Shown here: positions 142-33,771 of the stretch, piece after piece
Numbering within the stretch: the first letter of the stretch is position 1
Layout: each line of letters opens with the position of its first letter
DNA from: a virus
Virus record (IMG/VR): IMGVR_UViG_3300045988_044299
Direction: 5' to 3' (one strand)
DNA length: 34,775 nucleotides
Position numbers and translations under genes: made by a program
The notes under the pieces: model-generated
Seen by the model: the letters and a program-made list of their open reading frames with translations, nothing else
The model's database searches: none
What the model was told of the DNA's origin: nothing

Positions 142-1781
142 AAGTAAAAGTAAACACGGAGAAAGACGAGATCATGTACTCCGGAAGAACATGGCACGGA
201 ATACTGGAAAAGAAGATCATCTGTCCGGAGGACGGACAGGACTACGCAGTATTTGATGGAGAAGCCAACAAAGTACTGCAAACAATAATTGACAGGATAG
301 ACCTGGGCGATCTGTTTGAAGCATCGTCGGAAGACACAGGAATACAGATCCAGGCATTCCAGATGGATAGATATATAGACGCCTATACCGGAATATGCAA
401 GATGCTGAAAGACGCAGATGCAAAGTTGAATATCATCTGGAAAAACAAAAAGGTAGTCCTGAGCGCACAACTCCGGCAGGACTACAGCCAGGACGAAGAG
501 TTCAACACAGCACAGGTGGACTTCACAATCGAAAAAAACTACAGGCCAGTGAATCACATCATATGCCTGGGGCAGGGAGATCTGAAGAACAGAGCTGTGA
601 TCCATCTGTTTTGCGATGAAAACGGAGGAATACAGCCATACGCAACAAAAGACATACCGCTTCAAGATAGCGACTATATCCTGGGAACAAACAGGAAAGT
701 GATGGACGGGGAGGACGAAGTAGTAGAGATCCTGGACTATCCAAACGCAGAAATCACAGAAAACTACATCCTGCTGAGCACACAGCCTTCCGACTGGAAA
801 AAGAACAGCACAGCATACTTCTTTCAGGACGACAACGACAAGTTCAAAGAAGTGGAAGAAGTAGAGGTCGAGTACAAGCTACAGAAGATCCAACCGTATG
901 ACTGGGCCGTGAATTTTTCAGAATACTATGTGAAAAGTGGAAGCACGTACAAGAATGTAGAAGGGCAGACAGTAAAGCAGCTTCAGACGTCACAGCCTTC
1001 TGACTGGAGCAAAAAGTACGAAGACTATTTCACAAAAAGCGGAAGCAGTTATACACCAGTAAAAGGCGTAGAGAGGACAACGTACAGAAAGCAGGCGAAG
1101 AAACCTTCTGACTGGTCAAAGAACTACAAAAACTATTTTGAATTCTACAGCGATGGAGTAACGAGCAAATACCAGAACGTCAGTGGAATCACAAAATACA
1201 AGTATGTATTGCAGACACGGAAACCGACCGACTGGGCGGACAGCTGCACATCTTACTACAAGAAGAAGAAAAAGGGCGGATATGAAAATGTCAGCAAAAC
1301 GAAGAAGAAAAAGGCTCCGGCATGGAGAGCAAAGACATACTACACCCGGATTTCTTACGAAGTACCGCCAGCCTGGAAGGCAAACCATTATTACACAGAA
1401 GTCAATACGACCAGTGCTCCGGCATGGAGCGCGAACAAATACTACACGCAGAATGATAACGTGGCCCCGGCATGGAGCCAGAACAAATACTACAGCGAAA
1501 CAGATGAAACTGTAGCACCTGCGTGGACAGCGAACAAATACTTCAAAATGGTCACGGATCAGTATGCTGTCATGGTACAGAACGCCGTGGAGCGAATGGA
1601 GAAAGCACACCAGGCCGATGACATGAAGATCGCCCTGGAAGAAACAGAGCAAGTATACGACGTGGGAGACATCGTGGGAACCAGCGAGGAAACGACGGGG
1701 ATCACGGCAGTCCAGGAAGTATGCAAAAAGATCATCAAGATAAACAATGATGATGTGACTATAACATACGAGGTGAATTAA
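3..1781 (+). CDS. Tail-tip/baseplate protein in the Tal position (siphovirus Gp37-like N-terminus); this is the downstream part, and the true start is ATG 34592 across the circular junction
   Basis: Long ORF immediately after the Dit-position gene. It is in frame with ATG 34592 through the 141-bp overlap. The C-terminal half carries short aromatic repeats. Confidence 0.7.
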   Translation: MDAYELDMAYGSDENNFTCTIDRASHCCTEGFFLYVEGEEYGGIVDKVKVNTEKDEIMYSGRTWHGILEKKIICPEDGQDYAVFDGEANKVLQTIIDRIDLGDLFEASSEDTGIQIQAFQMDRYIDAYTGICKMLKDADAKLNIIWKNKKVVLSAQLRQDYSQDEEFNTAQVDFTIEKNYRPVNHIICLGQGDLKNRAVIHLFCDENGGIQPYATKDIPLQDSDYILGTNRKVMDGEDEVVEILDYPNAEITENYILLSTQPSDWKKNSTAYFFQDDNDKFKEVEEVEVEYKLQKIQPYDWAVNFSEYYVKSGSTYKNVEGQTVKQLQTSQPSDWSKKYEDYFTKSGSSYTPVKGVERTTYRKQAKKPSDWSKNYKNYFEFYSDGVTSKYQNVSGITKYKYVLQTRKPTDWADSCTSYYKKKKKGGYENVSKTKKKKAPAWRAKTYYTRISYEVPPAWKANHYYTEVNTTSAPAWSANKYYTQNDNVAPAWSQNKYYSETDETVAPAWTANKYFKMVTDQYAVMVQNAVERMEKAHQADDMKIALEETEQVYDVGDIVGTSEETTGITAVQEVCKKIIKINNDDVTITYEVN

Positions 1782-3723: not shown

Positions 3724-4941
3724 ATGGGTAAATTATTGACGAATGAAGTAGGCTTGCAGATGCTGGAAGAAATGAGACGACAGACAGCCATTTCGGAAGC
3801 AACAGCAAGAGATCAGATCGCAGCACTTGCGTCGCAGATGTCGGCGATCGCTAAGATTGTAAGAGATGGATATGGCAACGTATTAATGGACATCGGTGAT
3901 CAGTTGAACATTGACTGGACAGACGGATCAAAAAGCTACAACGTGCCGCATGACATTGTGCATTTTGCAAACGTCGACCTGAAGAACGGAGACAAGGTTC
4001 CAGGCATGTATCTTCAGTGGCATTTCTGTTCACCGTTCGGTGTTCAGTTCGATGCAGCAGAAGCATTCTATTATGCAGAGACAGAGCTGGCAGCAGGAAC
4101 CTACAACATTATCGTAGGCGACAACTGGGGCAATAATTGCAAGAAAAACAAACAGTATCAGTTCACACTGAGCAAGCCAGTTCCAGCAGGCGGACAGATT
4201 GCAGGATTCTATTCAATGCCGGACAAGGCGGCAGCAGAGTGGACAGTACAGACATTCACAGACGCAAAGAGTACTACACCGATTGAGACAGTGAAACCGA
4301 CAGCCGGATCCAATGGAACAAACCTTGGTACATTGTCATTTGCTGGAGACGGAAAACTGAACAGCTTGCAGCGCGTAGCGTATGGGTACAACAGATGGAG
4401 TCAGTCAGCAATCAGACAGTATCTGAACAGCGCAAAGGCAGCAGGACAGTGGTGGGAACCACAGCACAAGTGGGACAGATCACCAGCAGAACTTGCGTCG
4501 AAGCCTGGATTTCTGTCAGGATATTCAGACGACTTCCTGAACGCGATCAAACCTGTGAGAGTTCGCACAGCATTGAATACGGTCACAGATGCAGCTGTAG
4601 GAGCCTACGAAGACACATACGACAAGATCTTCCTTGCATCATTAGAGCAGGAGTTCATCACACCACAGGCGTCAGGCGTTGAGGGAGAAGCCTGGGACTA
4701 TTGGAAGCAGGCTGTTGAACGCAGCACACCGACACCGTGGTATAAGACATTCGCAGAAGGAGGACACCCGATCACATACGGCATTGATGGAAAGACTTCG
4801 GCGCAGTACGTGCGGTTGCGCAGTGCGTACAGAGGCGGCGCGAGCAATACGTGGAATGTGAACGCGTCCGGCTACGTCTTCAGCGGCTACGTCACCGCAG
4901 TGAGCAGCCTTCGCTTCGCCCCGGCTTGCGTCATCTGCTAA
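3724..4941 (+). CDS. DGR target protein 1, putative receptor-binding protein with a C-terminal variable (C-type-lectin-fold-like) region
   Basis: The last ~45 codons match the template repeat except at TR adenines. The gene sits directly after BppU and directly before avd-TR-RT. Confidence 0.8.
   Translation: MGKLLTNEVGLQMLEEMRRQTAISEATARDQIAALASQMSAIAKIVRDGYGNVLMDIGDQLNIDWTDGSKSYNVPHDIVHFANVDLKNGDKVPGMYLQWHFCSPFGVQFDAAEAFYYAETELAAGTYNIIVGDNWGNNCKKNKQYQFTLSKPVPAGGQIAGFYSMPDKAAAEWTVQTFTDAKSTTPIETVKPTAGSNGTNLGTLSFAGDGKLNSLQRVAYGYNRWSQSAIRQYLNSAKAAGQWWEPQHKWDRSPAELASKPGFLSGYSDDFLNAIKPVRVRTALNTVTDAAVGAYEDTYDKIFLASLEQEFITPQASGVEGEAWDYWKQAVERSTPTPWYKTFAEGGHPITYGIDGKTSAQYVRLRSAYRGGASNTWNVNASGYVFSGYVTAVSSLRFAPACVIC
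4801..4930 (+). repeat. DGR variable region VR1
   Basis: Aligns to TR 5436-5559. Outside the AAC tract there are 10 differences, all at TR adenines. VR1 is 6 nt longer than the TR. Confidence 0.9.
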
Positions 4942-4955
4942 AGCCATCACATAAT

Positions 4956-4979
4956 CTCCGGCACCCACGGATGCCGGAG
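4956..4979 (+). promoter_or_regulatory. Hairpin 3' of VR1 (8-bp stem ctccggca/tgccggag, 8-nt loop cccacgga); candidate DGR target-recognition element
   Basis: Perfect inverted repeat with no T-run after it. The same geometry and the same loop core (ccacg) occur after VR2. Confidence 0.6.
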
Positions 4980-4996
4980 AGGAAAGGGAAAAAGAA

Positions 4997-5416
4997 ATGT
5001 CAGTACCGGAAGGGCAGAGAGGGAAAGGCAAGTTCACAGTGCTTACAAAAGCGAACATGCTAAGTATCTATACAATTAAAATCTGCTGCAATAAAAAGGT
5101 ATTCCTTCCAGAATATCAGCACGCACTTACAGACGACATCATTCGGACAGCGAAAGACATCTTCATGCACTGCTGGACGGCGAATAATATCAGAGTGGGA
5201 AAAGACGAAGAAAAACGGAAGGAACGAAGAAGACTTCAGGAGCAGGCAGCGAACGACTGCAACAATCTCCTGGCACTTATGCAGATGGCGCAGACTCTGT
5301 TCCATCTGAAACTAAAGAGGATTAAATACTGGGGAGAAAGGACGATAGAAGTCAGAACCCTGATAAGATCCTGGATTGAATCAGATACAAAACGCTACTC
5401 ACAAGAGCAGCGATAA
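4997..5416 (+). CDS. avd: Accessory variability determinant (Avd-like basic helical-bundle protein)
   Basis: 139-aa basic, helix-rich ORF in the canonical position between the target gene and the TR. The assignment rests on position and composition, not on a strong motif. Confidence 0.7.
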   Translation: MSVPEGQRGKGKFTVLTKANMLSIYTIKICCNKKVFLPEYQHALTDDIIRTAKDIFMHCWTANNIRVGKDEEKRKERRRLQEQAANDCNNLLALMQMAQTLFHLKLKRIKYWGERTIEVRTLIRSWIESDTKRYSQEQR

Positions 5417-5435: not shown

Positions 5436-5559
5436 GCGCAGAACGTGCGGTTGCGCAGTGCGAACAGAGGCAACGCGAACAATACGTGGAATGTGAACGC
5501 GTCCGGCAACGTCAACAACAACAACGCAGTGAACAGCAATCGCTTCGCCCCGGATTGCG
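5436..5559 (+). repeat. DGR template repeat (TR)
   Basis: 124 nt rich in AAC/AAT codons. It is homologous to VR1 (4801-4930) and VR2 (21728-21830) with mismatches only at its adenines. Its 3' end (attgcgcagat) diverges from the sequence shared by both VRs (cttgcgtcatc). Confidence 0.9.
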
Positions 5560-5722: not shown

Positions 5723-6874
5723 GTGAATTATATGGATGAAGACATCAAGGAGCAAGTGATCGGCTTCGAGGCGCTGTATAAATCAATGCACCGATGCAAG
5801 AAGAACGTGCTCTGGAAGGACTCTGCGGCGAGTTTCTATCTGAATGGGATAGAACAGGCGCTGAAGCTGGAAAAACAGCTGAAAGAAGGCACGTACAAGC
5901 CACGGCCGCCGAAGAAGTTCGAGATCACACATCCGAAAAGAAGAGAAGCTGTGAGCATAGCATTCAGGGATCGCGTGTACCAGAGATCATTGAACGACAA
6001 TGTGATATATCCAATTATGACACAATCGTTCATACATGCGAACATGGCCTGCCAGAAAGGGAAAGGAACGGATGCGGCGGAGAATCTGTTGGACGAGTTC
6101 CTGAAACACTGGTACAGGCTGCACGGCCTGGAAGGCTATGTCTTACAATGCGATATACGCGGATATTACCCAAACATGAGTCACAAAGTAGCAGAGGAGA
6201 CGTTCCGAAAGAAACTGCCTCCGGTGATCTACGAGATGACAGAAAAGATCCTTCGCGAACAGTATGAGGGAGAGAAGGGTTATAATCCGGGAAGCCAGAT
6301 GATCCAGATCGCAGGTATATCAGTCCTGGATCCAATGGATCACATGATAAAGGAGCAGCTTCACACGAAAGAGTTCGAGAGATACATGGACGACTTTCAA
6401 ATGTTTGGAGAGACTATCGAAGAATTGCAATGCCGCCGGAACGCAATAGAGGCATATCTGAACGAAAGAGAGTTCGAGCTGCATCCGAAGAAGACAAGGA
6501 TCTATCCAATCAAAGAAGGAATCAAGTTCCTGGGCTTCACGCACAGGCTGACGAGCACAGGAAAAGTTATCCGGATAATAGATCCGAACAATGTCAAGCA
6601 GGAGCGAAAGAAGCTCCGGCGCATGGTCGGTCTGGTGAAGAAGGGCCAGATGACCAGAAAGAAGGTTGACGAGTGCTTCAAGGCCTGGAAGGCACATGCT
6701 GCGAAAGGCAATTCCACAAAGCTGATCAACCGGATGAACAAATACTATGCAGATCTATGGAAGGAGGATCAGAAGCATGAGCATGACCATGACCAGAAGA
6801 AAGAGAACTGTGAAAGAACAGAGGGAAAGGGAAGACATGCAGGCACAGCTGGAGAAGCAGCAGGCGACACTTGA
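5723..6874 (+). CDS. DGR reverse transcriptase
   Basis: Contains the YMDDF catalytic motif, a GSQMIQIAG motif (the SQ signature of DGR RTs) and KGKGTDAA and FLGF motifs. It lies immediately downstream of the TR. The start could be GTG 5723 or ATG 5732. Confidence 0.9.
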   Translation: MNYMDEDIKEQVIGFEALYKSMHRCKKNVLWKDSAASFYLNGIEQALKLEKQLKEGTYKPRPPKKFEITHPKRREAVSIAFRDRVYQRSLNDNVIYPIMTQSFIHANMACQKGKGTDAAENLLDEFLKHWYRLHGLEGYVLQCDIRGYYPNMSHKVAEETFRKKLPPVIYEMTEKILREQYEGEKGYNPGSQMIQIAGISVLDPMDHMIKEQLHTKEFERYMDDFQMFGETIEELQCRRNAIEAYLNEREFELHPKKTRIYPIKEGIKFLGFTHRLTSTGKVIRIIDPNNVKQERKKLRRMVGLVKKGQMTRKKVDECFKAWKAHAAKGNSTKLINRMNKYYADLWKEDQKHEHDHDQKKENCERTEGKGRHAGTAGEAAGDT

Positions 6875-14002: not shown

Positions 14003-14332
14003 ATGGCAATCAAAAGAACGGTAGAAACAGACGTTTACTGCGATGTGTGTGGCGAGTGGATCATAGGCTGGAGATCCAACGACCAGGGAACCAGCAAACT
14101 ATGGGCGGCATATTTTGCAAGAAAAAAAGGCTGCACAGTTGGGGAAAAGGTTATATGCAAAAAGTGCAGGATCAAGAAGCGGATCCAGACATGCAGCATA
14201 CAGCGAAAAATCGGAAGTGCAGGAAGGGACAGCGATGGAAGCTGCATGGGATTCGGAAGCGAAACATCAGACGAGCCACTGGAGAAGTGCAAACGGTGTA
14301 TTGCGTGCACATCTTACCAGTGGAAAGAATAG
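14003..14332 (+). CDS. Cys-rich hypothetical protein
   Basis: Contains CDVCG ... CKKC ... CKRCIAC motifs. Confidence 0.55.
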   Translation: MAIKRTVETDVYCDVCGEWIIGWRSNDQGTSKLWAAYFARKKGCTVGEKVICKKCRIKKRIQTCSIQRKIGSAGRDSDGSCMGFGSETSDEPLEKCKRCIACTSYQWKE

Positions 14333-14346
14333 TTCAAAGGATAGAA

Positions 14347-14409
14347 GCCGAAACGGTCAGCAATGACCGTCCACCGGAGATAACCTCCCGGTGCTGACGA
14401 TGGCAGGTT
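14347..14409 (+). ncRNA. Type II hammerhead ribozyme, copy A (predicted cleavage after C14371)
   Basis: Order of elements: GCC, GAAA, stem III (cggtca-gcaa-tgaccg), U, C (GUC site), stem I (caccgg ... ccggtg), CUGACGA, U, GGC. The stem I loop aacct can pair with aggtt at 14405-14409. Confidence 0.8.
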
Positions 14410-14494
14410 GAAGTCAGGTGTTCAAGCAGAGCAACGCTATAAAAGGAAAATGCACTTCCGCAGGAAGCATGGATAGCGCAAAGGAGGCAAAAGA

Positions 14495-14882: not shown

Positions 14883-15239
14883 ATGTTTATTTTATCACAG
14901 AACAAAGAGAAGCTGTACAACCTGTCCGGACACATTGAAGGAATCGGGTACGAAGAGACAAAGGAGTATGTCAAAGGAAAGAAGGAAGACAAGATCAGAC
15001 ACACACTCATGGTGTATGACGGATGCTGTGAAGAAGTAGCAGAGTACGAAACAAAAGAGGATTGTATGCTGATCCTGTATGCGGTCTTCAAAGCAATGGA
15101 ACAGGGAGAGAATGCACTGGAGCTTCCAACACAGGAAGAAACGGCCAAACAGAAGGAACTTATGAAACAGGTTATTGAAGCAGGCGGCGAGATCGCAAAA
15201 GAAGCGACGGAGTTGCTGAAGGAAATGTTCAAAGGATAG
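14883..15239 (+). CDS. Hypothetical protein (118 aa)
   Basis: ORF with an AAGGAGGG ribosome-binding site. Its last codons overlap the conserved 5' flank of hammerhead B. Confidence 0.6.
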   Translation: MFILSQNKEKLYNLSGHIEGIGYEETKEYVKGKKEDKIRHTLMVYDGCCEEVAEYETKEDCMLILYAVFKAMEQGENALELPTQEETAKQKELMKQVIEAGGEIAKEATELLKEMFKG

Positions 15240-15241
15240 AA

Positions 15242-15314
15242 GCCGAAACGGGGCACAGGCCCCGTCCGGTCACGATGGCAACGTGATCGCTGACGATGGC
15301 AAGCTGAAAGCCAT
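15242..15314 (+). ncRNA. Type II hammerhead ribozyme, copy B (predicted cleavage after C15266)
   Basis: Order of elements: GCC, GAAA, stem III (cggggc-acag-gccccg), U, C, stem I (cggtcacg-atggcaa-cgtgatcg), CUGACGA, U, GGC. The stem I loop atggc can pair with gccat at 15310-15314. Confidence 0.8.
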
Positions 15315-21115: not shown

Positions 21116-21856
21116 ATGGAAGACAGATGCGTGATGTGTGGCGAAATCATACCGGAGGGAAGAATGGTGTGTCCGGTATGCGAAGAAAGAGTATTGACCA
21201 GAAAAGGAGAACAGACAATGAAAGCGAGAACAATCAGAGAAACAGAGTACACATGGGAGCAGATCGAGGAGATCTTGGCAGCAGGTAAGGCAAGAGAAAC
21301 ATTCGGAGAAGATGGACAGATCACAGTCCAGGTCGAAGGAATTGGAACGGCCCTGTTGAATATCCTGGACTACGACAAGGACAAGGCTGCGGATCCGGAC
21401 ATGCGAACAATGACATTGCAGTTTGCAGATCTTCCGTTCGATGAAATGCCATTCGATGAAAACGGCTGTAACAAATGGGAGAAGTCCAGCATTCGCAGAA
21501 ACATGAACAGCATCGCCTTCAAGGAGAGATTCGAGGAAGGGTTCAGAAGACTCCTGGTTCCTGTGCTGAAGGAGAACGGAGACAGAGAGGCAACACTGGA
21601 CACGTTCTTCCTTCTGTCCGTGGAAGAAATGAAGGACGAAGAAAAGAAGTACCAGCGGTTCAGATCAGAACGCGACTGCGTGAAAGTCAATCCGGAGCAG
21701 GAGACAGAGTGGCACTGGACAAGATCCGCGTACAGAGGCACCGCGTACGATACGTGGAATGTGTACGCGTCCGGCTACGTCTACGACTACTACGGCGCAG
21801 TGTACAGCGGTCGCTTCGCCCCGGCTTGCGTCATCGGAGCGAAAGCAATCAAATAA
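21116..21856 (+). CDS. DGR target protein 2: N-terminal CxxC-CxxC zinc-ribbon-like segment plus a C-terminal variable domain
   Basis: The C-terminus (WTRSAYRGTAYDTWNVYASGYVYDYYGAVYSGRFAPACVIG) matches the TR except at adenines. An alternative internal start exists at MKARTIRE with an AAAGGAGA ribosome-binding site. Confidence 0.8.
   Translation: MEDRCVMCGEIIPEGRMVCPVCEERVLTRKGEQTMKARTIRETEYTWEQIEEILAAGKARETFGEDGQITVQVEGIGTALLNILDYDKDKAADPDMRTMTLQFADLPFDEMPFDENGCNKWEKSSIRRNMNSIAFKERFEEGFRRLLVPVLKENGDREATLDTFFLLSVEEMKDEEKKYQRFRSERDCVKVNPEQETEWHWTRSAYRGTAYDTWNVYASGYVYDYYGAVYSGRFAPACVIGAKAIK
21728..21830 (+). repeat. DGR variable region VR2
   Basis: Aligns to TR 5460-5559. Outside the AAC tract there are 10 differences, all at TR adenines. 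VR2 is 3 nt longer than the TR. Confidence 0.9.
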
Positions 21857-21859
21857 TCA

Positions 21860-21879
21860 GCGCCCGCCACGCAGGGCGC
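21860..21879 (+). promoter_or_regulatory. Hairpin 3' of VR2 (6-bp stem gcgccc/gggcgc, 8-nt loop gccacgca)
   Basis: It has the same spacing from the conserved ataatc motif, the same loop length and the same ccacg core as the VR1 hairpin. No T-run follows. Confidence 0.55.
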
Positions 21880-30950: not shown

Positions 30951-33771
30951 TAAGAATGAGGCAAAAATACGGTTTGTAGCCGAAACTTCCGATCTGTCTC
31001 AAAAAATTAAAGATGCCAATAGTGACATAAAAGGATTAAGCGCAGAACTACGGCTGAATGAAGCAGAGTTCAAAAATACTGGAGACGCTGCCACCTATAT
31101 GGCGAATAAACAAAAATTGCTTGAAGAAGAAATCGCGGCAAATAAGCAGAAACAAGAAGCTCTTAATGGAAAGATGCAACTAGCAAAGCAGATTTTCGGA
31201 GAAAACAGTGACGAAGCGCAGAAGTGGTCGAGGCAGCTTATAAATGCGAAAACAGAAGGCGAACGTTTAAAAACGCAAGTAAATGAGCTAAACACGGAAC
31301 TTGATGCGAACGAGGAAGATCTGGAAAATGCTGGAACGGCTGCCGAAGAAGCGGGAGATGGCTACACAGTACTGAAAGGAGCAATGTCAGAACTGGTAGC
31401 AGATGGAATCACAGCTGTAAAAGATGGAGCTGTAGAGCTTGCAACAGATTCAAGCAAAGCATACGCACAGTTTGCGGCACAAACCGGAATAGCAGCAGAC
31501 GCTATGGACGGATATAAAAAGGCCATACAGGACGTATACCTGGATAATTTTGGCGAAAGTCTGGAAGAAGTAGCGGAAAAGATGGGGAAGGTCAAGGAAA
31601 CGACTGGAGAACTGGATCCATCGAAGCTAAAAGAAATGACAGAAAATGCCATGACATTAGAAGATACATTCGACATGGATATGAGCGAATCCTTACGAGG
31701 TGCAGAGGCATTAATGACTCATTTCGGATTGACATCGGAGCAGGCTTTTGATCTGCTGGCAGCAGGTGCGCAAAACGGATTGAATTATTCCGATGAATTG
31801 GGCGACAATGTGGCAGAGTATTCGGGAAAATTCGCAGAAGCAGGATATTCAGCGAAAGATTATTTTGAACTGTTAAAAAATGGAAGTCAAGGCGGGGCTT
31901 ACAACTTAGATAAAGTCAATGATTCGATCAATGAAGTGACTACAAGGCTGGCGGATGGAACTATAGAGGAAGGACTCGGAAACTTTAGCGGCAAAACGAA
32001 AGAAACTTTTGAAGCGTGGAAGACGGGCGGTGCGACTCAAAAAGATGTGATAGATTCCATTGTGGCAGACATACAGGGAACGACCAATGAGCAGGAAAAA
32101 ATGAATATGGCTGCGTTGGCATTTGGAACAATGGCCGAAGACGGAGGAACAAAGTTCATTGAAGCATTATCGAGCACTGGTTCAGCATTTGACGATACAA
32201 AAGGAAAAATGCAGGGCTTGATGTCGGTAAAGTACGATGATATAGAGAGTTCTATAAGCGGATTGGGTAGAGCTATAAGACAAAATGTGTTGCAGCCAGT
32301 CGTGGATGAAGTCACACCGAAGGTAACAGAAAGCATTCAGGAAATCACAGGAAAAATACCAGAAGCAGTGCAAAAAGTACAAGAAATGCTTCCGGTACTG
32401 GGAGGAGTAGCAATAGCAGTAGGCGTAGTAACGGCGGCATTAAAATTACAGGCAGCAGTTACGGCCGTAAAGACGGCAATGGACGCGGCACAGGTTACGA
32501 CATTGAGTGGACTAATAGCGGCCGAATGGGCACAAGCCACGGCCGCCGCCGCCGCGTTTGCACCGTATCTATTGATTGTAGCAGCAATAGCAGCAGTTGT
32601 AGCAGCAATAGTGCTTTTGGTAAAGAACTGGGATGCTGTAAAAGAAAAATGTATTGAAGTTGCGCAGATTATAGGCGAAAAGTGGCATGAAATAAGCACA
32701 GCAATTCAGACTGCTATATCCACGGCATTCAACACGGCAAGTACAGTGGTGAGTACAGTGACAGCAGCAATTCAGACTGCTATATCCACGGCATTCAACA
32801 CAGCAAGTACAGTGGTGAGTACAGTGACAGCAGCAATTCAGGCTGCTATATCAACGGCATTCAACACAGCAAGTACAGTGGTGAGTACAGTGACAGCAGC
32901 AATTCAGACTGCTATATCCACGGCATTCAACACAGCAAGTACAGTGGTGAGCACAGTGACGTCAGCAATTCGGACGGCCGTATCAACAGCGTTCAATGCA
33001 ATGAAGACAGCAGTGACAACAGCTGTGAATGCAACAAAGACAGCGGTGACGACTGTATGGAATGGAATCAAGTCGACAGTATCTACAGTAGTGAATGCGG
33101 TCAGAACAACTGTAACAACAGTATGGAACGGCATCAGATCAGTGACATCATCAGTATGGAACGGGATCAAGACAGCTGTGACAACACCGATCAATGCGGC
33201 GAAGTCGGCTGTCAGTACGACAGTGAACGGAATACGAAGCACGATGACATCTGTCTTCGGAGGAATCAGGTCAACGGTATCGAGCATCTTCAGCGGGATC
33301 CAGTCGGCGATTACAAGCCCGATCCAGACTGCAAAGAACACACTGGCGAACCTGGTGTCAGGGATCAGAGGACTGTTCTCCGGACTGCATATATCACTGC
33401 CGCACATTAACCTGCCACATTTCCGTATATCTGGAGGTACGCCGCCGTATGGTATCGCAGGAAAAGGAACAGCGCCTTCCATCGGCATCGACTGGTATGC
33501 ACAGGGCGCGGTCTTGAAGAAAGCAACTTCGTTCGGAATCAATACCGTAACGGGCAACAGAATGGTAGGAGGAGAAGCAGGATATGAAGCAGTAGCGCCA
33601 ATCGACGTGTTACAGGGATATATACAGGCAGCAGTGGAGTCAGTAGTTGGGAACAGTGCACTGGACTATGACCTCCTGGCGGATAAGATTGCAAACGCAT
33701 GTGCAAGAACGAACACCACGCTGGAGCTGGACGGCAGACAGCTGGGGAGAGTAGTCAGGGGGTATGTATGA
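30940..33771 (+). CDS. Tape measure protein
   Basis: 943 aa with a coiled-coil N-terminus, a hydrophobic central segment and long tandem repeats. AAGGAGGG ribosome-binding site precedes GTG 30940. Confidence 0.9.
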   Translation: MANNKNEAKIRFVAETSDLSQKIKDANSDIKGLSAELRLNEAEFKNTGDAATYMANKQKLLEEEIAANKQKQEALNGKMQLAKQIFGENSDEAQKWSRQLINAKTEGERLKTQVNELNTELDANEEDLENAGTAAEEAGDGYTVLKGAMSELVADGITAVKDGAVELATDSSKAYAQFAAQTGIAADAMDGYKKAIQDVYLDNFGESLEEVAEKMGKVKETTGELDPSKLKEMTENAMTLEDTFDMDMSESLRGAEALMTHFGLTSEQAFDLLAAGAQNGLNYSDELGDNVAEYSGKFAEAGYSAKDYFELLKNGSQGGAYNLDKVNDSINEVTTRLADGTIEEGLGNFSGKTKETFEAWKTGGATQKDVIDSIVADIQGTTNEQEKMNMAALAFGTMAEDGGTKFIEALSSTGSAFDDTKGKMQGLMSVKYDDIESSISGLGRAIRQNVLQPVVDEVTPKVTESIQEITGKIPEAVQKVQEMLPVLGGVAIAVGVVTAALKLQAAVTAVKTAMDAAQVTTLSGLIAAEWAQATAAAAAFAPYLLIVAAIAAVVAAIVLLVKNWDAVKEKCIEVAQIIGEKWHEISTAIQTAISTAFNTASTVVSTVTAAIQTAISTAFNTASTVVSTVTAAIQAAISTAFNTASTVVSTVTAAIQTAISTAFNTASTVVSTVTSAIRTAVSTAFNAMKTAVTTAVNATKTAVTTVWNGIKSTVSTVVNAVRTTVTTVWNGIRSVTSSVWNGIKTAVTTPINAAKSAVSTTVNGIRSTMTSVFGGIRSTVSSIFSGIQSAITSPIQTAKNTLANLVSGIRGLFSGLHISLPHINLPHFRISGGTPPYGIAGKGTAPSIGIDWYAQGAVLKKATSFGINTVTGNRMVGGEAGYEAVAPIDVLQGYIQAAVESVVGNSALDYDLLADKIANACARTNTTLELDGRQLGRVVRGYV
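32701..32964 (+). repeat. Four near-identical in-frame 66-bp tandem repeats inside the tape measure gene
   Basis: Units start at 32701, 32767, 32833 and 32899, each encoding AIQTAISTAFNTASTVVSTVTA. Degenerate copies continue to about 33330. Confidence 0.95.

What the first reader, a model, noticed from the sequence alone, without database searches (positions are those of the whole stretch)
4879..4896. VR/TR length heterogeneity confined to an (AAC)n tract: possible codon-number diversification
The TR has four consecutive AAC codons (5514-5525).
- The corresponding VR1 segment has six codons (ttc agc ggc tac gtc acc, 4879-4896).
- VR2 has five codons (tac gac tac tac ggc, 21782-21796).
- Every extra codon has the form NNC, which is what adenine mutagenesis of an AAC codon yields.

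Both VRs therefore look as if they were copied from templates with 6 and 5 AAC repeats. DGR homing is normally described as substitution-only and length-preserving. Two explanations fit the data. The RT or RNA polymerase may slip on the AAC repeat, which would add loop-length diversity. Alternatively the TR tract may have contracted stepwise after the last homing events.
Basis: seen in the sequence. Interest (0 to 1): 0.8.

Follow-up and report, generated by a model that had tools for sequence, protein, structure and literature searches.

The report
DGR variable repeats gain extra codons
In this gut phage, a retroelement that rewrites two receptor-like genes sometimes adds one or two codons at an AAC-AAC-AAC-AAC stretch as well as changing bases there, which is a real and recurrent effect but one already noted and attributed to reverse-transcriptase slippage in a 2018 survey.

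Summary
The TR has (AAC)4 at 5514-5525. VR1 has six NNC codons (4879-4896) and VR2 five (21782-21796). Every other TR/VR difference lies at a TR adenine.

The window is a circular about 34.6-kb phage with a complete DGR: Avd, RT, TR, two DUF6273 targets, IMH and hairpins.

- All 12 contigs that carry this TR have (AAC)4.
- VR1 alleles have 4, 5 or 6 codons (29, 8 and 2 distinct alleles). VR2 alleles have 4 or 5 (about 15 and 11).
- No allele is shorter than 4 codons and none is out of frame.
- Four genomes carry a longer VR next to a four-codon TR.
- Long alleles sit 0.4% from four-codon neighbours in flanking sequence.
- A second DGR lineage shows the same pattern.

TR contraction is therefore rejected. 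The extra codons arise during or after retrohoming, most likely by RT slippage on the AAC repeat.

This is not new in kind. Wu et al. 2018 reported TR/VR indels next to AAC in 7% of DGRs and proposed the same slippage. The additions here are population-level recurrence, gains only, and more substituted adenines in long tracts.

One oddity remains: the window's VR1 tract repeats its own flank, GGCTACGTC (chance about 4e-4).

The parts
3724..4941 (+). DGR target gene 1 (405 aa), placed just after the tail genes. Its C-terminal DUF6273 domain carries VR1.
   Evidence: The ORF is. Pfam DUF6273 gives E 2.4e-12 and phrog_19280 gives E 2.3e-34. The exact protein is DAI77342.1, 'MAG TPA Caudoviricetes sp.'.
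4801..4930 (+). VR1, the variable repeat matching TR 5436-5559. It includes the IMH at 4911-4930.
   Evidence: All 10 mismatches outside the tract are at TR adenines.
4879..4896 (+). VR1 tract of six NNC codons (TTC AGC GGC TAC GTC ACC), opposite (AAC)4 in the TR. It holds a second copy of the flank GGCTACGTC at 4886-4894.
4955..4980 (+). GC-rich hairpin downstream of VR1 (TCTCCGGCACCC / GGATGCCGGAGA).
4997..5416 (+). The avd accessory gene (139 aa).
   Evidence: phrog_3206 'Avd protein of DGR' gives E 1.1e-11. There is a weak 23S_rRNA_IVP hit.
5436..5559 (+). TR, the template repeat. Its IMH* is at 5540-5559 and differs from the IMH by one base (A for C at 5554).
   Evidence: The TR is identical in 11 of the 12 contigs that hold it and has two base changes in the twelfth.
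5514..5525 (+). The TR (AAC)4 tract.
   Evidence: It is (AAC)4 in every TR found.
5723..6874 (+). The DGR reverse transcriptase (383 aa), with YMDD and a GSQ motif.
   Evidence: RVT_1 gives E 2.2e-13 and phrog_1423 gives E 3.2e-75. The best PDB sequence match is 8ub7_A 'Reverse transcriptase', E 4.3e-19.
21116..21856 (+). DGR target gene 2 (246 aa), 16 kb from the TR and next to ssb. It has a weak N-terminal zinc-ribbon hit, below Pfam's cut-off, and a C-terminal DUF6273 domain that carries VR2.
   Evidence: The exact protein is DAI77330.1.
21728..21830 (+). VR2, matching TR 5460-5559. It includes the IMH at 21811-21830.
   Evidence: all 10 mismatches outside the tract are at TR adenines. In relative 014808, VR2 carries the two non-adenine markers of its own TR.
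21782..21796 (+). VR2 tract of five NNC codons (TAC GAC TAC TAC GGC).
21860..21879 (+). GC-rich hairpin downstream of VR2 (GCGCCC, 8-nt loop, GGGCGC).

Best explanation
The window is a circular gut phage genome carrying an active diversity-generating retroelement (DGR). One 124-nt TR is reverse-transcribed by the RT-Avd pair with random incorporation opposite adenines. The cDNA then replaces VR1 in a tail-module DUF6273 protein and VR2 in a second DUF6273 protein 16 kb away.

At the (AAC)4 run of the TR, the copy that reaches the VR is sometimes one or two AAC units longer than the template. VR alleles therefore have 4, 5 or 6 diversified NNC codons at that spot, while the TR DNA stays at four.

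**Most likely step (inferred).** The nascent cDNA realigns backwards by 3 or 6 nt on the repeat. In this run only the G:C pair of each triplet is reliably matched, so the register is weakly held. This is the mechanism Wu et al. 2018 proposed.

**Shown here.** The length change is not inherited through the TR. It recurs independently and is confined to the tract. It is always in frame and always a gain.

**Not shown here.** Which molecular step produces the gain: RT slippage, RNA polymerase slippage, or misaligned cDNA integration.
For: **1. The DGR is complete.**
- Avd, an RT with YMDD and SQ motifs, and a TR are present.
- There are two VRs with adenine-only mismatches, IMH/IMH* and hairpins.

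**2. The TR is invariant.**
- It is (AAC)4 in 12 contigs.
- Two tract-independent scans of IMG/VR found no other TR.

**3. The VRs are length-polymorphic.**
- Distinct VR1 alleles: 29 with 4 codons, 8 with 5, 2 with 6.
- Distinct VR2 alleles: about 15 with 4 codons and 11 with 5.
- None is shorter and none is out of frame.

**4. Longer VRs sit beside a four-codon TR in the same contig.**
- Window: VR1 has 6 codons and VR2 has 5.
- OOAZ01000485.1: VR1 has 5.
- L059: VR1 has 6.
- L060: VR1 has 5.

**5. The change recurs.** In a tree of VR2 flanks, the five-codon alleles (window, L009, L023, L034, L038) each lie close to four-codon alleles. Three of them (window, L009, L023) have a four-codon allele as nearest neighbour at 0.4% divergence.

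**6. The long alleles are recent.** 10 of the 17 long DNA alleles, including both in the window, have no non-adenine difference from the TR in the flanks and only NNC codons in the tract. Third positions in the long tracts of the first allele set are C in 54 of 56.

**7. They are not codon duplications.** Adjacent identical codons occur in 5 of 11 long tracts, against 0.54 expected by chance.

**8. Long tracts carry more substituted adenines.** The fraction is 0.59 against 0.44 in short tracts (Fisher p = 0.008). Flanks do not differ, 0.38 against 0.42. This fits mismatch-promoted slippage.

**9. Retrohoming into VR2 is current.** In contig 014808, both VRs carry the two non-adenine markers of that contig's own TR.

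**10. A different DGR shows the same pattern.** L065, with a 437-aa RT and a different TR sequence, has (AAC)4 in the TR and five codons in its own VR. About half of the sampled alleles in that cluster are one residue longer at the same site.

**11. The literature agrees.** PMC5758913 and PMC12875486 propose slippage in multiples of three at AAC repeats.
Against: - No reads, cDNA or RNA were available, so the step at which the extra units arise is inferred rather than observed.
- The complete absence of contractions is not predicted by simple slippage. It needs either a directional bias or selection for a minimum loop of four residues. All homologues have at least four residues there.
- Long tracts are Tyr-rich. 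Selection could therefore produce the higher substitution density. At protein level the same trend is not significant (p = 0.22).
- The window's own VR1 tract contains GGC TAC GTC, an exact copy of its flank. The chance of this is about 4e-4, or about 0.01 after allowing for roughly 20 long alleles examined. A plain six-unit slip does not explain it.
- The alleles come from consensus assemblies, and the sampling was partly directed towards long alleles.
Confidence: 0.7

Rival explanations
1. The TR once had six and then five AAC units and contracted stepwise. On this view the long VRs are relics of earlier homing events.
For: (AAC)n is a microsatellite that could contract during DNA replication. 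Some five-codon VR2 alleles in TR-less relatives look old, because they carry non-adenine changes such as AAT, CAA and GCAGCG.
Against: - The TR is (AAC)4 in all 12 contigs, including one whose TR has diverged at two other bases.
- Most VR1 alleles (29 of 39) have four codons.
- Long alleles have many unrelated sequences and are scattered among four-codon alleles on backbones 0.4% apart.
- One genome (OOAZ01000485.1) has VR1 with 5 codons and VR2 with 4. Another (055186) has VR1 with 4 and VR2 with 5.
- The long alleles in the window have no non-adenine differences from the TR.
Confidence: 0.03
2. Ordinary DNA-level insertion or duplication occurs in the VR after homing, for example by replication slippage or templated repair. 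Selection then allows in-frame changes only in this loop.
For: - About half of the long tracts contain adjacent identical codons such as TAC TAC.
- The window's VR1 carries an exact 10-nt copy of its flank at 15-nt spacing, which looks templated.
- Homologues from other phages also vary in length at this loop.
Against: - Adjacent identical codons are no more frequent than chance: 5 of 11 observed against 0.54 expected.
- Several long tracts contain no duplication at all: AAC ATC TAC GGC TTC, AAC AGC TAC ATC TAC, and TAC GCC GGC AGC GGC TTC.
- Once diversified, the tract is no longer a perfect repeat, so slippage in VR DNA has little to act on.
- Third positions in long tracts are C in 54 of 56.
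- No simple duplication converts a four-codon allele into the window's VR1.
Confidence: 0.12
3. The cDNA has the template's length, but it is integrated out of register at its 5' junction within the NNC-periodic tract. Alternatively, heteroduplex repair adds the extra codons.
For: According to the literature, recalled and not tested here, the 5' end of DGR cDNA integration depends on homology and is variable. The flank copy in the window's VR1 hints at a template switch or misalignment.
Against: - After mutagenesis only every third base of the tract is shared, so misaligned pairing has little to hold it.
- Long alleles are diversified on both sides of the tract, as expected for full-length conversion.
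- I could not construct a single misalignment that yields the window's VR1.
Confidence: 0.1
4. Longer templates exist elsewhere, as TR alleles in co-infecting relatives acting in trans. Alternatively, long VR alleles are imported by recombination from other phages.
For: Many related contigs of 34-39 kb carry the VR2 gene without this TR, and five-codon alleles are common among them. These phages are clearly mosaic.
Against: - No TR with more than four AAC units turned up in IMG/VR, in the metagenome collection or in the fetched contigs.
- The window holds only three copies of the repeat.
- The flanks of the window's VR2 group with the TR-bearing clade.
- VR1 is absent from the TR-less phages, yet it also shows five- and six-codon alleles.
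Confidence: 0.06
5. The length differences are assembly artefacts produced in a hypervariable region.
For: VRs are assembled from mixed populations. One 1.4-kb contig (L039) does look like a VR1/TR chimera.
Against: - The same long alleles recur in independent assemblies and sequencing runs.
- All alleles are in frame.
- The repeats within the tract are far shorter than assembler k-mers.
Confidence: 0.02

Closest known systems
TR/VR indels next to AAC repeats in DGRs (Wu et al. 2018, Nucleic Acids Res 46:11, PMC5758913)
   Same: The TR and VR differ in length by a multiple of 3 bp exactly at tandem AAC in the TR. The proposed cause, RT slippage because two of three incorporations may be mismatches, is the explanation favoured here.
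   Different: - That survey compared single TR/VR pairs in GenBank genomes. It found in-frame indels mostly in 'Lineage 4-related', mainly non-phage DGRs.
- Here the element is a phage DGR.
- The evidence here is at population level. One invariant TR stands against dozens of VR alleles at two targets. Only gains of +1 or +2 codons occur. Long alleles make up 26% of distinct VR1 alleles and about 40% of VR2 alleles.
Bordetella phage BPP-1 DGR (bRT-Avd, TR, and the mtd VR)
   Same: The parts and logic are the same: RT plus Avd, a TR between avd and rt, adenine-only substitutions, IMH/IMH*, and a hairpin after the VR. The window RT's best PDB sequence match is 8ub7_A 'Reverse transcriptase'; that this entry is the BPP-1 enzyme is recalled, not checked here. 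Transient template slippage of bRT at AC/ACC has been proposed from deep sequencing (PMC12875486).
   Different: - BPP-1 has one target, an Mtd C-type-lectin fold. This phage has two DUF6273 targets, one of them remote and outside the tail module.
- None of the BPP-1 papers I searched reports VR alleles longer than the TR.
Junctional length diversity in immune receptor CDR3 loops
   Same: It works alike in outcome. Variation in residue number as well as residue identity is concentrated in one binding-site segment, and the longer versions are Tyr/Gly-rich.
   Different: The mechanism is unrelated, with no recombinase and no untemplated addition. This is an analogy only.

Membership tests
Diversity-generating retroelement (DGR) | A reverse transcriptase of the DGR clade with a YxDD catalytic motif and SQ in motif 4 | tested here: met
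   RVT_1 gives E 2.2e-13 and phrog_1423 gives E 3.2e-75. The best PDB match is 8ub7_A, E 4.3e-19, ahead of group II intron RTs. YMDD and 'NPGSQ' are visible in the translation. Clade placement by phylogeny was not done.
Diversity-generating retroelement (DGR) | An accessory protein (Avd) encoded next to the TR and RT | tested here: met
   ORF 4997-5416 matches phrog_3206 'Avd protein of DGR', E 1.1e-11.
Diversity-generating retroelement (DGR) | A TR/VR repeat pair whose differences are confined to TR adenines, with the VR at the 3' end of a target ORF | tested here: met
   Outside the tract, 10 of 10 mismatches for VR1 and 10 of 10 for VR2 are at TR adenines. Both VRs end the ORFs 3724-4941 and 21116-21856.
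Diversity-generating retroelement (DGR) | IMH in the VR against IMH* in the TR, and a GC-rich hairpin downstream of the VR | tested here: met
   The IMH is TCGCTTCGCCCCGGCTTGCG (4911-4930 and 21811-21830). The IMH* is ...GGATTGCG (5540-5559), and homology ends right after it. The hairpins are at 4955-4980 and 21860-21879.
Diversity-generating retroelement (DGR) | Ongoing one-way transfer of sequence from the TR to the VR | tested here: met
   In relative 014808, the TR carries two non-adenine changes (AATACG to AACACC), and both its VR1 and its VR2 carry them. There are dozens of distinct VR alleles against one TR. No experiment was done.
DGR TR/VR indels at AAC repeats, attributed to RT slippage (Wu et al. 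2018) | A TR/VR length difference that is a multiple of 3 and located at tandem AAC in the TR | tested here: met
   The differences are +6 and +3 nt exactly opposite (AAC)4. The same holds in relatives and in a second DGR.
DGR TR/VR indels at AAC repeats, attributed to RT slippage (Wu et al. 2018) | The extra units are produced by the RT slipping during cDNA synthesis | not testable with these tools
   The evidence is only indirect: the TR DNA is invariant, there is no duplication signature, and long tracts have a higher adenine-substitution density. A direct test needs cDNA and RNA sequencing.
C-type-lectin-fold DGR variable proteins (Mtd/TvpA type) | The VR is displayed on a C-type-lectin fold | tested here: inconclusive
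   Pfam assigns DUF6273. The AlphaFold model of residues 190-405 has mean pLDDT 84. Its only significant Foldseek hit in the PDB is a domain of the Thomasclavelia ramosa IgA peptidase (9qa6, E 1.3e-7, TM 0.60). No Mtd or TvpA hit was returned, and the fold was not inspected further.

The most novel reading that the evidence does not exclude
Codon addition at (AAC)n may be a regular, gain-only output of these gut-phage DGRs rather than a rare error. It accounts for roughly a quarter to two fifths of the VR alleles seen in nature. It is tied to how heavily the tract is mis-copied, and it is kept because a longer Tyr/Gly-rich segment widens the binding repertoire. DGRs would then diversify loop length as well as sequence from a single fixed template.
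Probability: 0.35. Interest if true: 0.6.

Novelty: new member of a known kind. Interest (0 to 1): 0.4.

Why it matters
DGRs are usually modelled, and now engineered, as substitution-only diversifiers whose repertoire is fixed by the number of TR adenines.

If AAC runs also yield in-frame codon gains at appreciable frequency, three things follow:
- The theoretical repertoire is larger.
- DGR-finding tools that forbid gaps will mis-call or miss such VRs.
- Engineered TRs containing AAC runs may give length variants.

This phage family offers a natural test bed for the slippage idea, which has been proposed but, as far as I could find, never tested directly. It has one invariant (AAC)4 template, two targets and hundreds of public alleles.

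Tried and rejected
- **Searches that found nothing useful.**
  - Megablast of the DGR cassette against INPHARED phages gave no match.
  - A pattern scan of GTDB genomes for a host prophage gave no match.
  - A PDB sequence search with target 2 gave nothing significant.
  - Foldseek of the target-1 model returned only an IgA-peptidase domain, so the location of the loop could not be tied to a solved DGR target.
- **Codon duplication.** I tested whether long alleles arise by duplicating a neighbouring codon. Adjacent identical codons are not enriched, so I rejected this as the general cause.
- **Substitution density at protein level.** I looked for the higher substitution density of long tracts in an unbiased cluster sample at protein level. 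The direction is the same but it is not significant (p = 0.22).
- **Deriving the window's VR1 by a single event.** I tried a single duplication, a single RT jump and an unequal crossover. None reproduces TTC AGC GGC TAC GTC ACC from a four-codon parent. A two-jump path does, but it is contrived.
- **RNA polymerase slippage.** I considered this as the source and cannot separate it from RT slippage with sequence data alone. I rank it lower because, from general knowledge, transcriptional slippage is known mainly for homopolymer runs, and because tract length tracks RT mis-copying.
- **A second TR.** None is present in the window or in IMG/VR.
Full report
**1. What is in the window**

The first and last 141 bases are identical, so the contig is a circular genome of about 34.6 kb. 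Tail, holin/lysin and SSB genes mark it as a phage.

Between the tail genes and the lysis genes lies a complete diversity-generating retroelement (DGR):
- Target gene 1 spans 3724-4941. It is 405 aa with a DUF6273 domain (E 2.4e-12).
- avd spans 4997-5416 and matches phrog_3206 'Avd protein of DGR'.
- The template repeat (TR) spans 5436-5559.
- The reverse transcriptase gene spans 5723-6874. It matches RVT_1 and phrog_1423 (E 3e-75) and has YMDD and an SQ motif. Its best PDB match is 8ub7_A 'Reverse transcriptase'.

A second target, 21116-21856 (246 aa, DUF6273), lies 16 kb away beside ssb. Both variable repeats (VRs) end their ORFs. Both carry the same IMH (TCGCTTCGCCCCGGCTTGCG, against ...GGATTGCG in the TR). 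Both are followed by a GC-rich hairpin.

**2. The observation**

With the identical flanks as anchors, the tract is:
- 12 nt in the TR, (AAC)4 at 5514-5525
- 18 nt in VR1, at 4879-4896
- 15 nt in VR2, at 21782-21796

All three are in frame, and every VR codon has the form NNC. Outside the tract the repeats align without gaps. All 20 mismatches are at TR adenines.

**3.

I collected related contigs from these sources:
- the RT protein
- a degenerate pattern spanning the tract, run against IMG/VR and the metagenome collection
- the IMH alone
- two tract-independent TR patterns
- the 90% protein clusters of both targets, with 695 and 1446 members
- contig look-ups for individual long alleles

*The TR does not vary in length.* It is (AAC)4 in all 12 contigs that hold it. 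One of these has two other base changes in its TR.

*The VRs do vary*.

| Locus | 4 codons | 5 codons | 6 codons |
|---|---|---|---|
| VR1 (distinct alleles) | 29 | 8 | 2 (window; L059, YAGSGF) |
| VR2 (distinct tracts) | about 15 | 11 | 0 |

No allele is shorter than four codons. None is out of frame. I saw no indel elsewhere in any VR.

*Longer VRs sit next to a four-codon TR in four genomes*: the window, OOAZ01000485.1, L059 and L060.

*Length changes at the two targets are independent.* In OOAZ01000485.1, VR1 has 5 codons and VR2 has 4. In 055186, VR1 has 4 and VR2 has 5.

*The change recurs.* In a neighbour-joining tree of 770 nt of VR2 flanks, the five-codon alleles lie close to four-codon alleles. 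For three of them (window, L009, L023) the nearest neighbour is a four-codon allele at 0.4% divergence.

*The long alleles look recent.* 10 of the 17 long DNA alleles, including both in the window, have no non-adenine difference from the TR in the flanks and only NNC codons in the tract.

*Retrohoming is current.* In contig 014808 both VRs carry the two non-adenine markers of that contig's own TR, so retrohoming continued into both targets after the TR changed.

Stepwise TR contraction therefore cannot explain the data. The extra codons arise between the TR DNA and the VR DNA.

**4. Which step**

*DNA-level codon duplication in the VR is not the general cause.* Adjacent identical codons occur in 5 of 11 long tracts, against 0.54 expected from codon usage. 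Several long tracts contain no duplication at all.

*Third positions in long tracts are C in 54 of 56*. This is expected if each extra unit is another read of AAC.

*Long tracts carry more substituted adenines than four-codon tracts.* The fractions are 0.59 and 0.44 (Fisher p = 0.008; Mann-Whitney p = 0.002). The flanks do not differ, at 0.38 and 0.42. The two six-codon tracts are the most substituted, at 9/12 and 10/12.

This is what one expects if mis-copied, poorly paired duplexes lose register more easily. It argues mildly for the RT over RNA polymerase. The signal is modest, however:
- The sampling was partly directed towards long alleles.
- Long tracts are Tyr-rich, so selection could contribute.
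- The protein-level version of the test is not significant (p = 0.22).

Misaligned integration of the cDNA cannot be excluded.

*Only gains are seen.* This needs either a directional bias or selection for a minimum of four residues. All 53 homologues aligned have at least four residues there.

*Structural context.* In an AlphaFold model of the C-terminal 216 residues (mean pLDDT 84), the block of residues that contains most of the tract has the lowest confidence within the folded domain (72, against 82-97 elsewhere). That is compatible with a variable surface segment but does not prove one. Foldseek gave no informative DGR-target match.

**5. Generality**

Other 90% clusters of DUF6273 targets show the same one-residue gain at the same site, and never a loss:
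- 7 of 15 sampled members in the P0025 cluster
- 1 to 2 of the sampled members in three other clusters
- none in one cluster

For the P0025 family I read the DNA. This is a different DGR, with a 437-aa RT and a different TR sequence. Its TR has (AAC)4, and its VR on the same contig has five codons, AGC TAC TAC GGC CAC.

**6. One thing not explained**

The window's VR1 tract reads TTC AGC GGC TAC GTC ACC. Its middle three codons, together with the preceding C, repeat exactly the 10 nt that precede the tract (CGGCTACGTC at 4870-4879 and 4885-4894).
- GTC was not seen among 134 other tract codons.
- With position-specific substitution frequencies, the chance that a six-codon tract contains its own GGC-X-GTC flank is about 4e-4. 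Allowing for the roughly 20 long alleles inspected, it is about 0.01.
- The other six-codon allele (L059) has no such copy.

This particular allele may therefore have arisen by a more complex template switch rather than by a clean +2 slip. I could not derive it from any single event.

**7. Comparison with what is known**

Wu et al. 2018 (PMC5758913) found TR/VR length differences in 25 of 372 DGRs. Of those indels, 74% lay next to AAC in the TR. They proposed that the RT goes out of register on AAC repeats because two of three incorporations may be mismatches. In their survey, in-frame cases clustered in mainly non-phage 'Lineage 4-related' DGRs.

A 2026 study of the reconstituted BPP-1 element invokes transient slippage of the RT at AC/ACC and cites the same model (PMC12875486).

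I found no paper in the searchable library that reports direct detection of cDNAs or VRs longer than the template at AAC repeats.

The finding is thus a clear, well-supported instance of a described phenomenon. It is not a new kind of behaviour. What the data here add:
- It occurs in a phage DGR.
- The TR is demonstrably constant across a natural population, while both targets cycle among length classes.
- Only gains are seen.
- Long alleles are common: about 26% of distinct VR1 alleles and about 40% of distinct VR2 alleles.

**8. Verdict**

- The slippage-type reading is supported, although the exact step is not resolved.
- The TR-contraction reading is rejected.
- The claim of novelty is overstated.
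- Interest is moderate.

Noticed in passing
window 14346-14412 and 15241-15309 (+): There are two type II hammerhead ribozyme matches 895 nt apart. One scores 42.8 bits, above the gathering threshold. The other scores 32.9 bits (E 4.5e-4), below it. They lie inside an approximately 890-nt direct duplication (13936-13988/14821-14873 and 14323-14356/15218-15251). Each sits just after a small ORF (14003-14332 and 14883-15239).
   Followed up: partly
window 4870-4879 and 4885-4894: The 10-nt CGGCTACGTC is repeated at 15-nt spacing, so the VR1 tract contains a copy of its own left flank. The protein there reads SGYV-F-SGYV-T. The chance is about 4e-4 under the observed substitution spectrum.
   Followed up: yes
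window 21116-21856; loci L006, L018, L021, L048, L050, L051, L058: The second DGR target lies in the replication module next to ssb. It has a weak N-terminal zinc-ribbon hit, below Pfam's cut-off, which is an unusual setting for a DGR target. Many related IMG/VR contigs of 34-39 kb carry this gene with a VR2-like end. These contigs show no TR by three exact patterns, and their VR2 copies carry non-adenine changes (AAT, CAA, AGT, GCAGCG), as expected for orphaned VRs. I did not check whether these phages lack an RT.
   Followed up: partly
L039 (OHGA01010052.1, 1398 nt): This contig joins the 5' flank of VR1 to a TR-like body with all adenines intact and the TR-type IMH* and downstream sequence. 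It is either an assembly chimera across the repeat or a VR1-TR recombinant that has lost avd.
   Followed up: no
window 32633-33028: A tandem array with a 66-nt period and about six copies, the central copies 95-98% identical (family D1). It was not examined.
   Followed up: no
window 1303-1545 and 786-1138: Short in-frame repeats (42-57 nt, 66-80% identical) lie within the 592-aa minor-tail-protein ORF 3-1781 (families D4, D9 and D11).
   Followed up: no
L068 2560-2740: In a contig of the related P0025 DGR family, the TR-like repeat next to the target differs from that target's VR at non-adenine positions (GGT AAC ATC against GGC TAC CTC). The adjacent TR therefore does not seem to be the template of that VR.
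   Followed up: no
L004/L013/L027 versus L005/L006/L021 and others: Two VR2 allele groups share the tract and the 3' part of the VR but differ in the 5' part. This is the opposite of what partial retrohoming starting from the IMH end would leave. It suggests recombination between alleles.
   Followed up: no
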